Assembly (NCBI RefSeq): GCF_029227855.1
Contig: NZ_CP074356.1
Source of the DNA: Escherichia coli
GTDB lineage: Bacteria; Pseudomonadota; Gammaproteobacteria; Enterobacterales; Enterobacteriaceae
Length of the DNA: 64,000 bases
Direction: 5' to 3' (one strand)
In this document: positions 9,001 through 12,000 of the stretch, in pieces
Numbering within the stretch: position 1 is the first letter of the stretch
Layout of the letters: every line of letters starts with the position of its first letter
Program-made: the position numbers

Positions 9001-12000
9001 TATCCAGTTCCAGGCACTCAACACGCTGGGTGTTGAACTCGCTGGAAGTGTCATCCAGACGGGCATTTTTCAGACGCTCACGGATCACTTTCAACTGCTC
9101 AAGCCCTTTCGCCATCGCATCACCTTCACGGAAGACCGAGAAGTTATGCTGCATACATTCTTGCAGTGCTTTACGGATCGCCACCGGATCTTCACCGTTA
9201 CGGTTGTTGTTCCAGCGGTTCAGGCGATCCAGAGACGCTTCTACATCAGACTCGCTGGCATCGCGCAGTGCGCCCTGCTCGGCGATAGACTCTTGCAGAT
9301 GCAGACCCGCTGCGCGACCAAAGACCACCAGGTCCAGCAGCGAGTTGCCGCCCAGACGGTTAGCGCCGTGTACCGATACACAAGCGATTTCACCAACGGC
9401 AAACAGCCCCGGAACAACCACATCTTCGCCTTTCTCATTCACGGTCAGCGCCTGACCGGTCACTTTGGTCGGAATACCGCCCATCATGTAGTGACAGGTT
9501 GGGATAACCGGGATCGGCTCTTTCACCGGATCAACGTGAGCGAAGGTACGGGAGAGTTCCAGAATACCCGGCAGACGGGATTCGAGAACTTCTTTACCCA
9601 GGTGGTCAAGTTTCAGTTTCGCGTGTGGCCCCCACGGACCATCACAGCCGCGACCTTCACGGATTTCAATCATGATGGAACGCGCCACCACGTCACGGCC
9701 CGCCAGGTCTTTGGCGTTCGGCGCATAACGCTCCATAAAGCGTTCGCCATGTTTGTTCAGCAGATAACCGCCTTCACCACGGCAACCTTCGGTGACCAGT
9801 ACGCCCGCTCCTGCAATGCCGGTCGGGTGGAACTGCCACATTTCCATATCCTGCACTGGTACGCCTGCACGGATAGCCATGCCGACGCCGTCGCCAGTGT
9901 TAATGTGGGCGTTGGTAGTGGACTGATAAATACGCCCTGCCCCGCCAGTCGCCAGCACGGTAGCGCGGGCTTTGAAATAAACCACTTCACCAGTTTCGAT
10001 GCACAGTGCGGTACAACCGACCACCGCGCCATCCTGGTTTTTCACCAGATCCAGCGCATACCACTCGGAGAAAATGGTGGTGTGGTTTTTCAGGTTCTGC
10101 TGATAAAGGGTGTGCAACAGTGCGTGACCGGTACGGTCAGCAGCCGCCGCAGTACGTGCCGCCTGCTCGCCGCCGAAGTTTTTCGACTGACCGCCAAACG
10201 GACGTTGATAGATACGACCATCATCAAGACGCGAGAACGGCAGACCCATATGTTCCAGTTCCAGAATCGCTTCCGGCCCGGTTTTACACATATATTCAAT
10301 CGCGTCCTGGTCACCGATATAGTCCGAACCTTTTACGGTGTCGTACATATGCCATTCCCAGTTATCTTCATGGGTATTACCCAGCGCAACGGTAATGCCG
10401 CCTTGCGCAGAAACGGTATGGGAACGGGTCGGGAAGACTTTAGAGAGCAGCGCACAGGTCTGACCGCTCTGGGAAATTTGCAGCGCCGCGCGCATACCTG
10501 CGCCACCGGCACCAATCACAACTGCATCAAATTCTCTGACTGGCAATTTCATCACACACCCCACACCACAACGAATCCATAAATCACGTAAACCACCAGA
10601 GCAACGACAATCACCAGTTGCAGCATCAGGCGCAAGGCCAGCGGTTTAACGTAGTCGGTCAACACCTGCCACATGCCGATCCAGGCATGGATCAAGATAG
10701 AAAACAGCGCCAGCAGGGTGAACACTTTGGTGAACGCAGAGGCGAAGAAACCGATCCAGACTTCATATGTCAGCTCGCCACTGGTAGCGAAAAAACCGAC
10801 CATATAAATGATGTAGAGCGTCAGGACGATAGCGGTAGCGCGAACGAGGATGAAATCATGTACGCCATTGCGTCCTAATGCGGAGGCGTTGCTTACCATA
10901 CGAGGACTCCTGCGAGAAGTGAAAGCACGACAGTAATAACAAAGGAGATTTTGGCGGAGCGTTTACCCGCTTCGAATGTTTCTTCCAGATAGCCAAAATC
11001 CATCATCATGTGGCGAATACCTACGACGACGTGATACGCCAGAGCGGTAAGGATGCCCCACATGATAAATTTGACGAAGAAGCTGCCCATAATCGCGGAA
11101 GCTTGCTCGAAACCTTCAGGGGAAGAGAGGCTGGTACCCAGAAGCCACAGCAGGATGCCCACTGCAACAAAGGTGATCACACCGGAAACGCGATGGAGAA
11201 TGGACGCTATCGCCGTGATGGGGAACCGGATGGTCTGTAGGTCCAGATTAACAGGTCTTTGTTTTTTCACATTTCTTATCATGAATAACGCCCACATGCT
11301 GTTCTTATTATTCCCTGGGGACTACGGGCACAGAGGTTAACTTTCTGTTACCTGGAGACGTCGGGATTTCCTTCCTCCGGTCTGCTTGCGGGTCAGACAG
11401 CGTCCTTTCTATAACTGCGCGTCATGCAAAACACTGCTTCCAGATGCGAAAACGACACGTTACAACGCTGGGTGGCTCGGGATTGCAGGGTGTTCCGGAG
11501 ACCTGGCGGCAGTATAGGCCGTTCACAAAATCATTACAATTAACCTACATATAGTTTGTCGGGTTTTATCCTGAACAGTGATCCAGGTCACGATAACAAC
11601 ATTTATTTAATTTTTAATCATCTAATTTGACAATCATTCAACAAAGTTGTTACAAACATTACCAGGAAAAGCATATAATGCGTAAAAGTTATGAAGTCGG
11701 TATTTCACCTAAGATTAACTTATGTAACAGTGTGGAAGTATTGACCAATTCATTCGGGACAGTTATTAGTGGTAGACAAGTTTAATAATTCGGATTGCTA
11801 AGTACTTGATTCGCCATTTATTCGTCATCAATGGATCCTTTACCTGCAAGCGCCCAGAGCTCTGTACCCAGGTTTTCCCCTCTTTCACAGAGCGGCGAGC
11901 CAAATAACAAACGGGTAAAGCCAGGTTGATGTGCGAAGGCAAATTTAAGTTCCGGCAGTCTTACGCAATAAGGCGCTAAGGAGACCTTAAATGGCTGATA

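What the first reader, a model, noticed from the sequence alone, without database searches (positions are those of the whole stretch)
11283..11990. 708-bp divergent sdhC / gltA control region
This is an unusually long, AT-rich non-coding interval between two divergently transcribed TCA-cycle loci. It is known as a regulatory hub (ArcA, Fnr, CRP and others), but I cannot pinpoint individual sites reliably by eye, and no ORF of convincing length or codon usage lies within it.
Basis: partly seen in the sequence, partly recalled or inferred. Interest (0 to 1): 0.2.

Follow-up and report, generated by a model that had tools for sequence, protein, structure and literature searches.

The report
sdhC–gltA control region, mostly transcribed leaders
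This is the well-known E. coli control region between the succinate dehydrogenase and citrate synthase genes. About 78% of it is transcribed as two long, structured mRNA leaders, it contains two already-annotated tiny genes (ybgU, ybgV), and the citrate synthase leader has a conserved long-range RNA fold that I could not find described.

Summary
Positions 11283-11990 are the 708-bp sdhC(-)/gltA(+) intergenic region of E. coli, 100% identical to O157:H7 and present in 5425 of 5426 complete genomes.

- It is not uniformly AT-rich. Only the 158-270 bp core is (33% GC). The sdhC leader is 53% GC.
- It is not free of ORFs. K-12 annotates ybgU (11678-11785) and ybgV (11769-11801), both published as detected by tagging and immunoblot.

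Published start sites put sdhC at 11505 and gltA at 11664, 11684, 11740 and 11776. Only 158 bp therefore lie between the outermost starts, and that core holds the published ArcA sites and a conserved CRP-like site. I found no convincing FNR, IHF or Fur match.

The leaders carry sites complementary to Spot 42, RyhB and RybB. The sdhC Spot 42 site sits in a 60-nt insertion found only in Escherichia, Citrobacter and Salmonella.

The ybgU frame shows no protein-level selection and is intact in only about half of 56 related sequences.

The new element is in the gltA leader. Two long-range helices enclose the Spot 42 site and are supported by covariation (7 of 14 pairs with compensatory changes, 47 sequences, 0 of 500 shuffles). 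No Rfam family matches.

Verdict: a known region, modest interest.

The parts
11283..11505 (-). sdhC 5' leader, 223 nt, from the start site at 11505 to the base before the ATG
   Evidence: SMRT-Cappable-seq start site K-12 754954 = window 11505. Park 2013 site positions imply the older S1 mapping at 11501. GC 53.4%.
11279..11311 (-). sdhC ribosome-binding region with overlapping stretches complementary to RyhB and RybB
   Evidence: Predicted duplexes: RybB nt 1-25 at -22.5 kcal/mol, RyhB nt 34-66 at -18.3 kcal/mol. The block GAATAACGCCCACATGCTGTTCTTATT is near-invariant in Enterobacteriaceae. Literature states that RyhB, Spot 42 and RybB target sdhC.
11311..11370 (-). about 60-nt insertion in the sdhC leader, found only in Escherichia, Citrobacter and Salmonella
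   Evidence: Present in those three genera and absent from the other 10 Enterobacteriaceae and 6 other Enterobacterales aligned. Term-seq 3' ends at 11368 and 11361 fall inside it.
11325..11338 (-). Spot 42 pairing site of sdhC mRNA, 44-56 nt upstream of the ATG
   Evidence: 12 contiguous pairs with Spot 42 nt 3-16, dG -24.3 kcal/mol, better than all 15 shuffles (best -21.4).
11374..11380 (-). sdhC leader helix S1, 3' strand CCGGAGG, part of the invariant block CCGGAGGAAGGAA
   Evidence: RNAalifold pairs it with leader nt 5-11. Invariant in 59 distinct sequences, so covariation cannot test it.
11380..11398 (-). sdhC leader hairpin S3 (GUCUG...CAGAC)
   Evidence: Predicted by RNAalifold. 48-57 of 59 sequences are paired per position.
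11398..11403 (-). sdhC leader helix S2, 3' strand ACGCUG
   Evidence: Pairs with CAGCGU at 11465-11470. 345 of 354 cells are paired and three positions show compensatory changes (C-G to U-A, G-C to A-U, U-A to C-G). Slid controls give 12-24%.
11465..11470 (-). sdhC leader helix S2, 5' strand CAGCGU
11495..11501 (-). sdhC leader helix S1, 5' strand UCUCCGG (leader nt 5-11)
11511..11539 (-). sdhC sigma-70 promoter: -35 TTGTAA (11539-11534) and -10 TATACT (11516-11511)
   Evidence: The only promoter-like match of the consensus scan. The -10 lies 6 nt upstream of the mapped start site 11505. Conserved across the order.
11519..11572 (.). ArcA binding site with four direct-repeat elements, -71 to -18 of sdhC
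   Evidence: Site sequence from Park 2013 Tables S2/S4 located in the window. ArcA direct-repeat consensus match at 11522-11538.
11577..11592 (.). CRP-like palindrome AGTGATCCAGGTCACG
   Evidence: Two mismatches to the consensus (on its own this is no rarer than chance in the window). The half-sites are conserved and the 6-bp spacer is free in 20 genera. Its centre, 11584.5, is 79.5 bp from both start site 11505 and start site 11664.
11597..11611 (.). ArcA-box-like sequence, a consensus match only
   Evidence: 12 of 15 matches to GTTAATTAAATGTTA, one of only 2 such positions in 64 kb. It is not one of the two ChIP-seq sites.
11624..11655 (.). ArcA binding site with three direct-repeat elements, -68 to -37 of gltAp2
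   Evidence: Site sequence from Park 2013 located in the window. Consensus matches at 11627-11643 and 11638-11654. It contains the invariant TTGACA.
11664..11776 (+). cluster of gltA start sites at 11664, 11684, 11740 and 11776
   Evidence: SMRT-Cappable-seq K-12 754795, 754775, 754719, 754683. Only the transcript starting at 754683 (11776) appears in the full-length transcript table I read, with a count of 236, so I treat 11776 as the major start. A perfect -10 TATAAT at 11674-11679 serves 11684. TTGACC (11741-11746), a 17-nt spacer and TATTAG (11764-11769) serve 11776; both hexamers are conserved.
11678..11785 (+). ybgU, a 35-codon small ORF whose ATG overlaps the -10 hexamer of the 11684 start site
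   Evidence: K-12 b4735 and a PGAP 'hypothetical protein'. Pfam PF23495, 100.5 bits. Published as detected after tagging. No coding signature: variable columns 16/17/20 of 35 at codon positions 1/2/3 and pN/pS 0.85 against 0.86 and 0.94 in the other frames. Start codon ATG in 28 and ATT in 28 of 56 sequences; 33 or more codons in 26 of 56.
11720..11732 (.). conserved block TTATGTAACAGTG with no known binder, -56 to -44 of start site 11776
   Evidence: Conserved from Escherichia to Yersinia, Rahnella, Dickeya and Photorhabdus. Its distance to the gltA ATG is 252-263 nt in most sequences.
11769..11801 (+). ybgV, a 10-codon small ORF starting with GTG, overlapping the 3' end of ybgU
   Evidence: K-12 b4768. 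Published as detected after tagging, at higher level than YbgU. The frame is not conserved: 1 to 51 codons in 14 genera. Its last codons and stop cover the 5' strand of helix A.
11792..11798 (+). gltA leader helix A, 5' strand GGAUUGC
   Evidence: Pairs with 11955-11961.
11808..11814 (+). gltA leader helix B, 5' strand GAUUCGC (GAUUUGC in other genera); a mapped RNA 3' end at 11812 lies inside it
   Evidence: Pairs with 11939-11945. Term-seq 3' end K-12 754647 = 11812, scored not Rho-dependent and tagged 'uORF'.
11859..11893 (+). gltA leader hairpin C (GCUCUGU 11859-11865 with ACAGAGC 11887-11893); its 5' arm and loop form the Spot 42 site CUCUGUACCC (11860-11869)
   Evidence: Duplex with Spot 42 nt 3-16, dG -20.4 kcal/mol (not better than shuffles on energy alone). 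The 10-mer is invariant in 14 genera and is present in 61 of 77 sequences counted. Stem with a G-C to A-U compensatory variant. [quoted passage not shown]
11939..11945 (+). gltA leader helix B, 3' strand GCAAAUU (GCAAAUC in other genera)
11955..11961 (+). gltA leader helix A, 3' strand GCAGUCU, ending 30 nt upstream of the ATG
11978..11983 (+). gltA Shine-Dalgarno AAGGAG within the invariant block GGCGCTAAGGAGAC
   Evidence: Read from the sequence. Invariant in 14 genera.

Best explanation
The interval is the known bidirectional sdhCDAB / gltA regulatory region of E. coli. It works on two levels.

First level: transcription. A short AT-rich core (about 11506-11663, extending to 11775 for the major gltA promoter) holds back-to-back sigma-70 promoters. 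ArcA direct-repeat sites overlap both promoter zones and give anaerobic repression. One CRP site sits midway between the outermost start sites.

Second level: the two leaders, which make up the other roughly 550 bp. They are 223 nt for sdhC and 215-327 nt for gltA, and they act as post-transcriptional platforms.
- The sdhC leader pairs with RyhB and RybB at its ribosome-binding region and with Spot 42 about 50 nt upstream.
- The gltA leader pairs with the same Spot 42 seed about 125 nt upstream of its start codon.
- Both leaders have conserved secondary structure.

In the gltA leader, two long-range helices (A and B) close a domain of roughly 125-155 nt. That domain contains the Spot 42 hairpin, and its base lies 30 nt from the AUG.

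The minor, upstream-initiated gltA transcripts also carry two short translated ORFs, ybgU and ybgV. These behave as incidental or cis-acting upstream ORFs, not as conserved proteins.

Shown here: coordinates, conservation, complementarity, covariation, and the lack of a coding signature. Taken from the literature: start sites, ArcA binding, protein detection, and small-RNA regulation. Inferred: that the helices form in vivo and what they do.
For: Identity and annotation.

Start sites: (Yan 2018).

ArcA sites with sequences, and derepression in an arcA mutant (sdhC 133-fold, gltA 7-fold). ArcA consensus matches coincide with those sites.

CRP-like site with conserved half-sites and a variable spacer.

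Small-RNA complementarity. Literature statements that RyhB, Spot 42 and RybB target sdhC and that Spot 42 targets gltA far upstream.

gltA leader structure:
- The single-sequence fold has z = -2.3.
- RNAalifold predicts helices A, B and C on 14 genera.
- The position-matched 5' and 3' windows pair better than shuffles in 14 of 14 Enterobacteriaceae and better than any other window of the same leader.
- On 47 distinct sequences aligned without reference to structure, 97.7% of cells are paired against 26-42% when slid. Seven of 14 pairs show compensatory changes, which 0 of 500 shuffles reach.

sdhC leader structure.

ybgU and ybgV: annotation and published detection. No codon periodicity, pN/pS no different from the other frames, and start codon and length not conserved.
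Against: Most of the transcription-factor assignment rests on literature and consensus matching, not on anything I could measure. The CRP consensus match alone is no rarer than chance in the window (24 found, 25.7 expected).

The Spot 42-gltA duplex energy (-20.4) is within the range of shuffled controls (mean -18.4, best -21.0). Its support is conservation plus literature.

The long-range gltA helices are not predicted in the thermodynamic ensemble for Siccibacter, Dickeya, Yersinia, Providencia or Photorhabdus. E. coli itself has a C.A mismatch in helix B.

The shuffle control ignores relatedness among sequences, and the metagenomic sequences were selected by a pattern next to the Shine-Dalgarno sequence.

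Helix S1 of the sdhC leader is invariant and therefore untestable by covariation.

The ybgU frame is open for 33 or more codons more often than a shuffle of variable columns predicts (12 of 14 genera). The larger sample lowers this to 26 of 56, but weak selection on translation of the frame is not excluded.
Confidence: 0.85

Rival explanations
1. One reading: a purely non-coding, AT-rich hub of transcription-factor sites (ArcA, Fnr, CRP, IHF, Fur), with its length explained by the number of DNA sites.
For: ArcA and CRP sites are real and conserved. The core is 33% GC.
Against: Only 158 bp lie between the outermost start sites and 78% of the interval is transcribed. The best FNR-like match (11818-11831, 2 mismatches) lies in a non-conserved stretch of the gltA leader. 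The one IHF consensus match (11799-11811) and the best Fur match (13 of 19) are no better than chance expectation. The conserved blocks outside the core covary as RNA helices, and DNA sites would not do that. Two ORFs inside the interval are translated.
Confidence: 0.1
2. YbgU and/or YbgV are functional small proteins that act in trans, for example by binding citrate synthase as the 29-aa VcdP does in Vibrio cholerae. Their position next to gltA would then reflect functional coupling.
For: Both were detected as tagged proteins. A Pfam family, PF23495, exists and hits ORFs in Salmonella, Kosakonia and Siccibacter. VcdP is a precedent for a small protein that activates GltA. The frame stays open more often than shuffles predict in 14 genera.
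Against: There is no third-position excess: 16, 17 and 20 variable columns at codon positions 1, 2 and 3. pN/pS is 0.85, the same as the two non-coding frames. E. coli and E. albertii differ by 5 amino-acid changes and 1 synonymous change (read from the alignment). The start codon is ATT in 28 of 56 sequences and the frame stops at codon 14 in 23 of 56. The ybgV frame ranges from 1 to 51 codons. The conserved residues coincide with promoter elements (-10 TATAAT, -35 TTGACC, the TTATGTAACAGTG block).
Confidence: 0.07
3. ybgU and ybgV are regulatory upstream ORFs. Translating them on the upstream-initiated transcripts covers the 5' strand of helix A (11792-11798), because the ybgV stop is at 11799-11801. 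That would change leader folding, processing at 11812, or gltA translation.
For: Adams 2021 list ybgV-gltA among uncharacterised upstream ORFs with an RNA 3' end less than 200 nt downstream. That 3' end (11812) lies 11 nt past the ybgV stop and inside helix B (coordinates). ybgV ends exactly where helix A begins.
Against: The transcript starting at 11776, the only gltA transcript in the full-length table I read, starts downstream of both start codons. Any such control would therefore touch only minor transcripts. Neither ORF is conserved in length, whereas the helices are. No experiment links the ORFs to gltA output.
Confidence: 0.2

Closest known systems
E. coli K-12 gltA-sdhC divergent regulatory region, as mapped by Wilde & Guest 1986, Shen & Gunsalus 1997, Park et al. 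2013 and Yan et al. 2018
   Same: Same locus at 99.7% identity. The promoters, ArcA site sequences, CRP-like site, start sites and the ybgU and ybgV ORFs all map onto the window.
   Different: The window is an O157:H7-type allele. For example, it reads CCGTTCAC where the K-12 ArcA site reads CTGTTCAC. Nothing else distinguishes it.
[quoted passage not shown]
   Same: The Spot 42 site of gltA lies 121-134 nt upstream of the AUG, inside a leader closed by long-range helices. Richter & Backofen 2012 already pair 'DsrA-rpoS and Spot42-gltA' as far-upstream sites.
   Different: In rpoS the small RNA opens an inhibitory helix and activates translation. Spot 42 represses gltA, and here the long-range helices do not include the Shine-Dalgarno sequence, ending 30 nt before the AUG. 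The mechanism is unknown and there is no sequence similarity.
Spot 42 / Hfq control of sdhC (Desnoyers & Massé 2012; paper not held, cited through and my own recollection)
   Same: The Spot 42 seed pairs well upstream of the sdhC ribosome-binding site (11338-11325, 44-56 nt upstream of the ATG), and RyhB and RybB pair at the ribosome-binding region.
   Different: What I add is phylogenetic. The Spot 42 site lies in a 60-nt insertion restricted to Escherichia, Citrobacter and Salmonella, so this regulatory link is younger than the RyhB/RybB block.
mdtU-mdtJI and other upstream-ORF-dependent leaders (Adams et al. 2021)
   Same: A translated small ORF in a 5' leader with an RNA 3' end just downstream. 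ybgV-gltA is listed by those authors as a candidate.
   Different: The 3' end here was scored as not Rho-dependent. The ORFs are upstream of the start site I take to be the major one and are not conserved, whereas MdtU's C-terminus is reported as conserved.
VcdP of Vibrio cholerae, a 29-aa protein that activates citrate synthase
   Same: A small protein functionally tied to GltA. YbgU and YbgV are small proteins encoded next to gltA.
   Different: No sequence relationship was tested or is expected. YbgU shows no protein-level constraint.

Membership tests
K-12 sdhC/gltA divergent regulatory region | Lies between divergently oriented sdhC and gltA and is near-identical to the K-12 sequence | tested here: met
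   ORFs and annotation. 99.7% identity to K-12 strains and 100% to O157:H7.
K-12 sdhC/gltA divergent regulatory region | Carries the two ArcA binding-site sequences defined by ChIP-seq and footprinting | tested here: met
   Both published site sequences were located at 11519-11572 and 11624-11655, with one base different in the first. Actual binding was not testable here.
K-12 sdhC/gltA divergent regulatory region | A CRP site upstream of the sdhC promoter | tested here: met
   AGTGATCCAGGTCACG at 11577-11592, with half-sites conserved across 20 genera. The published position (about -83.5) is from memory, because Nam 2005 is not held.
   The best match has 2 mismatches, at 11818-11831, in a non-conserved leader stretch. 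Park 2013 considers the FNR effect indirect.
Pfam PF23495 (YbgU) | Score above the Pfam gathering threshold | tested here: met
   100.5 bits against a cut-off of 27, E = 3.8e-29.
Pfam PF23495 (YbgU) regarded as a conserved protein | Purifying selection on the amino-acid sequence, and conservation of the start codon and length | tested here: not met
   Codon-position variability is flat and pN/pS is 0.85, no different from the other frames. ATG in 28 of 56 sequences, and 33 or more codons in 26 of 56.
Spot 42 regulon target sites | Complementarity to the 5' single-stranded seed of Spot 42 (nt 1-16) | tested here: met
   sdhC: 12 bp, -24.3 kcal/mol. gltA: 10 bp, -20.4 kcal/mol. Both use nt 3-16.
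Spot 42 regulon target sites | Experimentally shown regulation | not testable with these tools
   Literature only.
Any Rfam family (riboswitch, leader, small RNA) | Covariance-model match | tested here: not met
   Only two chance-level hits, to eukaryotic families (E = 5.4 and 9.1), in 10800-12500 on both strands.
Conserved structured 5' leader (generic class) | Base pairs maintained by compensatory substitutions across species | tested here: met
   gltA helices A and B: 7 of 14 pairs, 0 of 500 shuffles, slid controls 26-42%. Hairpin C has a G-C to A-U variant. sdhC helix S2 has 3 covarying pairs.
Upstream-ORF-dependent leader regulation | Downstream gene expression depends on translation of the upstream ORF | not testable with these tools
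   Only positional evidence is available.
Intrinsic terminator or attenuator in the gltA leader | G+C-rich hairpin followed by a U tract at the mapped 3' end (11812) | tested here: not met
   No terminator-like site on the + strand near 11812. The local fold has no U tract.

The most novel reading that the evidence does not exclude
Both divergent leaders are conserved, structured RNA domains that have not been catalogued (no Rfam match).

In gltA mRNA, two covarying long-range helices (11792-11814 with 11939-11961) close a domain of roughly 125-155 nt. Its central hairpin presents the Spot 42 site. The fold would bring a pairing site 125 nt upstream to within about 30 nt of the AUG, which could explain how Spot 42 represses from a distance.

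The mapped RNA 3' end at 11812 would then be a processing site in the helix. Ribosomes finishing ybgV on upstream-initiated transcripts would prevent helix A from forming, so promoter choice would select the leader fold.

A parallel architecture in the sdhC leader (5' end paired to the invariant CCGGAGG) suggests that the two TCA-cycle mRNAs share a design.
Probability: 0.3. Interest if true: 0.4.

Novelty: already known. Interest (0 to 1): 0.22.

Why it matters
As a finding it mostly confirms textbook regulation of the entry point of the TCA cycle, so its main value is to close the item correctly. The interval is known, it is not ORF-free, and most of it is leader RNA, not protein-binding DNA.

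Three by-products may be useful to specialists:
- A covariation-supported long-range fold of the gltA leader around the Spot 42 site. It gives a testable structural explanation for repression from about 125 nt upstream.
- Evidence that the Spot 42-sdhC link arose with a lineage-specific 60-nt insertion, while the RyhB/RybB block is older.
- Evidence that YbgU, although translated and given a Pfam family, evolves like promoter DNA and not like a protein. This is a caution for small-protein catalogues.

Tried and rejected
- Rfam scan of 10800-12500 at a permissive threshold found nothing relevant.
- Consensus scans for FNR, IHF, Fur and CRP over the 64-kb window gave counts equal to chance. Only the CRP-like and ArcA matches gain support from conservation or literature.
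The 52-aa extended frame found only Escherichia ORFs. Pfam marks on fetched loci later showed hits in Salmonella, Kosakonia and Siccibacter.
- On 14 genera, the ybgU frame looked maintained: 12 of 14 were open against about 22% expected from shuffled variable columns. I do not rely on this. Stops are strongly frame-biased by semi-conserved motifs, and the 56-sequence sample shows the frame truncated at codon 14 in 23 cases.
- I tested whether the 60-nt sdhC insertion is an antisense fragment of the spf gene. Similarity beyond the seed is weak (z 1.2-2.7, p 0.02-0.14), so I rejected the idea as unsupported.
- Whole-length RNAduplex of small RNA against leader gave meaningless extended duplexes and one run timed out. 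I replaced them with windowed duplexes and shuffles.
- A second stretch complementary to RyhB at 11444-11424 (-24.1 kcal/mol) is within the shuffle range, so I make no claim for it.
- Start-site tables were not available from Ettwiller 2016. Thomason 2015, Desnoyers & Massé 2012, Beisel & Storz 2011 and Nam 2005 are not held.
- Extending gltA helices A and B to Yersiniaceae, Morganellaceae and Dickeya gave mixed results. A helix of different sequence sits at the same position in Rahnella (z = -5.3), Yersinia artesiana and Photorhabdus. It is not favoured in their thermodynamic ensembles, except in Rahnella, and the unguided MAFFT alignment is one column out of register. I therefore claim the structure only for Enterobacteriaceae.
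- No covariance model was built, because the leader is too long for the calibration limit.
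Full report
**Observation**

Window 11283-11990 lies between sdhC and gltA.
- sdhC is on the - strand at 10893-11282, using the K-12 start.
- gltA is on the + strand at 11991-13274.
- The length is 708 bp. PGAP starts sdhC 15 nt earlier, at 11297, which would make it 693 bp.

The stretch is 100% identical to O157:H7 genomes and 99.7% to K-12. It occurs once in 5425 of 5426 complete E. coli genomes.

Overall GC is 43.5%, against 51.9% for the window, but the low GC is confined to the core:
- 11506-11663 is 32.9% GC.
- The sdhC leader is 53.4% GC.
- The gltA leader is 45.6% GC.

So the coordinates and the gene identities are confirmed. 'AT-rich' and 'non-coding' need qualifying.

**Annotated small ORFs inside the interval**

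The K-12 record annotates two small ORFs on the gltA strand.
- ybgU (b4735, 35 aa) maps to 11678-11785.
- ybgV (b4768, 10 aa, GTG start) maps to 11769-11801.

PGAP calls the ybgU frame a 'hypothetical protein' in essentially every E. coli genome. Pfam has a family for it, PF23495, which scores 100.5 bits.

VanOrsdel et al. 2018 list YbgU among the small proteins they identified by chromosomal epitope tagging and immunoblot. Weaver et al. 2019 added YbgV, which they found at a higher level than YbgU.

**Start sites**

SMRT-Cappable-seq (Yan et al. 2018, supplement) gives these start sites, converted to window coordinates:

| Gene | K-12 coordinate | Window coordinate |
|---|---|---|
| gltA | 754795 | 11664 |
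| gltA | 754775 | 11684 |
| gltA | 754719 | 11740 |
| gltA | 754683 | 11776 |
| sdhC | 754954 | 11505 |

Only the transcript starting at 754683 (11776) appears in the full-length transcript table I read, with a count of 236. I therefore treat 11776 as the major gltA start.

These fit the sequence.
- sdhC has -35 TTGTAA and -10 TATACT at 11539-11511.
- A perfect TATAAT at 11674-11679 serves the 11684 start.
- TTGACC, a 17-nt spacer and TATTAG (11741-11769) serve the 11776 start.

All of these hexamers are conserved across genera.

Three consequences follow.
- Only 158 bp (11506-11663) lie between the outermost start sites, so 550 of 708 bp are leader.
- The ybgU ATG sits inside the -10 hexamer of the 11684 promoter. 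It can only be translated from transcripts that start at 11664.
- Both ybgU and ybgV start upstream of the 11776 start site.

**Transcription-factor sites**

Park et al. 2013 give two ArcA ChIP-seq regions with site sequences. I located both in the window:
- 11519-11572, with four direct repeats, at -71 to -18 of sdhC.
- 11624-11655, with three direct repeats, at -68 to -37 of gltAp2.

Loss of arcA derepresses sdhC 133-fold and gltA 7-fold. My consensus scans hit the same places, plus an ArcA-box-like 15-mer at 11597-11611.

A CRP-like palindrome, AGTGATCCAGGTCACG, lies at 11577-11592. It has two mismatches to the consensus, which is no rarer than chance in 64 kb. Its half-sites are conserved and its spacer is free in every genus aligned, including a reduced Pantoea symbiont. 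Its centre is 79.5 bp from both the 11505 and the 11664 start sites.

- The best FNR-like match (2 mismatches) lies in a non-conserved leader stretch. Park et al. consider the FNR effect on sdhC indirect.
- The single IHF consensus hit is no better than chance.
- The best Fur match, 13 of 19, is no better than chance.

**Small-RNA pairing sites**

I took the spf, ryhB and rybB sequences from the K-12 record.
- **Spot 42 on sdhC.** Spot 42 nt 3-16 pairs with the sdhC leader at 11338-11325. This is 12 contiguous pairs at -24.3 kcal/mol, better than every shuffle.
- **Spot 42 on gltA.** The same seed pairs with the gltA leader at 11857-11870 at -20.4 kcal/mol, which is within the shuffle range. 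The core CUCUGUACCC is invariant in 14 genera and is present in 61 of 77 sequences counted.
- **RyhB and RybB.** Both pair with the near-invariant block next to the sdhC start, 11311-11279.

The literature agrees. Three small RNAs target sdhC. gltA is a validated Spot 42 target whose site is noted for lying far upstream.

**A lineage-specific insertion in the sdhC leader**

The sdhC Spot 42 site lies in a roughly 60-nt insertion at 11311-11370. The insertion is present only in Escherichia, Citrobacter and Salmonella among 20 genera. This small-RNA link is therefore younger than the RyhB/RybB block. I tested whether the insertion derives from spf itself, and the support is weak.

**Is ybgU a conserved protein?**

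Across 13 genera the variable columns are spread evenly over codon positions: 16, 17 and 20 of 35. pN/pS is 0.85, against 0.86 and 0.94 in the other two frames.

A first test suggested that the frame stays open more often than chance (12 of 14). Stops are strongly frame-biased by semi-conserved motifs, so I enlarged the sample.

In 56 sequences carrying the motif:
- the start codon is ATG in 28 and ATT in 28;
- the frame stops at codon 14 in 23;
- only 26 keep 33 or more codons.

The ybgV frame ranges from 1 to 51 codons.

The conserved 'residues' coincide with the -10 hexamer, the -35 hexamer and a conserved block, TTATGTAACAGTG (11720-11732), whose binder is unknown. I conclude that ybgU and ybgV are translated in E. 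coli but evolve as promoter DNA, not as proteins. A cis-acting role as upstream ORFs on the minor transcripts remains possible.

**gltA leader structure**

The E. coli leader from 11777 folds with z = -2.3. RNAalifold on 14 genera predicts three elements:

| Element | 5' strand | 3' strand |
|---|---|---|
| Helix A | GGAUUGC, 11792-11798 | GCAGUCU, 11955-11961 |
| Helix B | GAUU(U/C)GC, 11808-11814 | GCAAAU(C/U), 11939-11945 |
| Hairpin C | GCUCUGU, 11859-11865 | ACAGAGC, 11887-11893 |

Hairpin C carries the Spot 42 site on its 5' arm and loop.

These helices explain conserved blocks that are otherwise puzzling. The position-matched windows pair better than shuffles in 14 of 14 Enterobacteriaceae (z from -2.5 to -5.6) and better than any other window of the same leader. 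The pairing appears in the thermodynamic ensemble of 13 of 14.

A metagenome scan with a pattern next to the Shine-Dalgarno sequence added 80 loci. I then aligned 47 distinct sequences without reference to structure and counted pairs:
- 97.7% of cells are paired, against 26-42% when the partner is slid.
- 7 of 14 pairs show compensatory double changes.
- 0 of 500 shuffles reach any of the five measures.

Hairpin C also has a G-C to A-U variant.

Outside Enterobacteriaceae, a helix of different sequence (UUAACAAC with GUUGUUAG) occupies the same position in Rahnella, Yersinia and Photorhabdus. It is not consistently favoured thermodynamically, so I limit the claim to Enterobacteriaceae.

The distance from the TTATGTAACAGTG block to the ATG is 252-263 nt in most sequences. 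The Term-seq 3' end at 11812 falls inside the 5' strand of helix B, and no terminator-like feature is there. No Rfam family matches.

**sdhC leader structure**

RNAalifold on 15 species predicts three elements:
- Helix S1 pairs leader nt 5-11 (UCUCCGG) with CCGGAGG at 11380-11374.
- Helix S2 pairs CAGCGU at 11470-11465 with ACGCUG at 11403-11398.
- Hairpin S3 spans 11380-11398.

In 59 distinct sequences S1 is invariant, so covariation cannot test it. S2 is 97% paired, with three covarying positions and slid controls of 12-24%. The core length from the start site to CCGGAGGAAGGAA is 141-155 nt in 61 of 67 sequences.

**Verdict**

The interval is the known sdhC/gltA regulatory region.

What is there is a compact promoter core controlled by ArcA and CRP, flanked by two long structured leaders that receive Spot 42, RyhB and RybB, plus two translated but non-conserved small ORFs.

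The covariation-supported gltA leader fold is the only element I could not find described. It is a modest addition to a well-studied locus.

Noticed in passing
window 11282-11297: PGAP starts sdhC at the ATG at 11297 (134 aa, MWALFMIRNVKK...), while K-12 starts it at 11282 (129 aa). The 15-nt extension is conserved at the DNA level in many Enterobacteriaceae, but it overlaps the RyhB/RybB pairing block and is absent from Siccibacter, Dickeya and Yersinia. This favours the shorter protein.
   Followed up: partly
window 11311-11370: A roughly 60-nt insertion in the sdhC leader is restricted to Escherichia, Citrobacter and Salmonella. It carries the Spot 42 site, two Term-seq 3' ends (11368, 11361) and an ArcA-like direct repeat, GGTTAACTTTCTGTTAC (11335-11351, 10 of 12 matches). 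Its origin is unknown, and its similarity to spf is weak.
   Followed up: partly
window 11720-11732: The block TTATGTAACAGTG is conserved from Escherichia to Yersinia, Dickeya and Photorhabdus. It lies at -56 to -44 of the gltA start site at 11776. It matches none of the consensus sequences tried, and its distance to the gltA ATG is held at about 252-263 nt.
   Followed up: partly
window 11691-11744: An ATG at 11691 opens a 17-codon ORF (MKSVFHLRLTYVTVWKY) only 7 nt from the 11684 start site, in a different frame from ybgU. The ATG is conserved in 12 of 14 genera, but the frame length varies from 7 to 17 codons in 13 genera and is 51 in Yokenella. I found no experimental evidence for it.
   Followed up: partly
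window 11424-11444 (- strand): A second stretch complementary to the RyhB core (CUGGAAGCA with UGCUUCCAG, -24.1 kcal/mol) lies about 150 nt upstream of the sdhC ATG and is conserved in most but not all genera. Its energy is within the shuffle range.
   Followed up: partly
window 11505, 11584.5, 11664: The centre of the CRP-like palindrome is exactly midway (79.5 bp each way) between the sdhC start site and the outermost gltA start site.
   Followed up: no
window 11851-11856 and 11972-11977: AGCGCC, just upstream of hairpin C, is perfectly complementary to GGCGCU, just upstream of the gltA Shine-Dalgarno sequence. Both are near-invariant. RNAalifold did not pair them, and covariation cannot test the pairing because the 3' block was part of the search pattern.
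   Followed up: no
L083 (Salmonella), L010 (Rahnella), L012 (Photorhabdus): Leader length is otherwise tightly conserved, but there are exceptions. Salmonella has a 44-nt insertion inside the gltA leader domain. Rahnella has an insertion of about 170 nt inside sdhC helix S2. Photorhabdus has about 220 extra nt in the gltA leader. All lie inside helix-closed domains and leave the closing helices intact.
   Followed up: partly
window 11831-11929: A 32-codon ATG ORF (MDPLPASAQSSV...) lies in the gltA leader. It has no Pfam match, and it spans hairpin C and variable alignment columns. It looks like a chance ORF.
   Followed up: partly
window 13300-13600 and 13577-16740: Downstream of gltA there is a very AT-rich gap (29-35% GC) with strong negative GC skew, followed by a fimbrial subunit and usher operon (ybgD/ybgQ-like). 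In several other genera nei (Fapy-DNA glycosylase) sits there instead.
   Followed up: no
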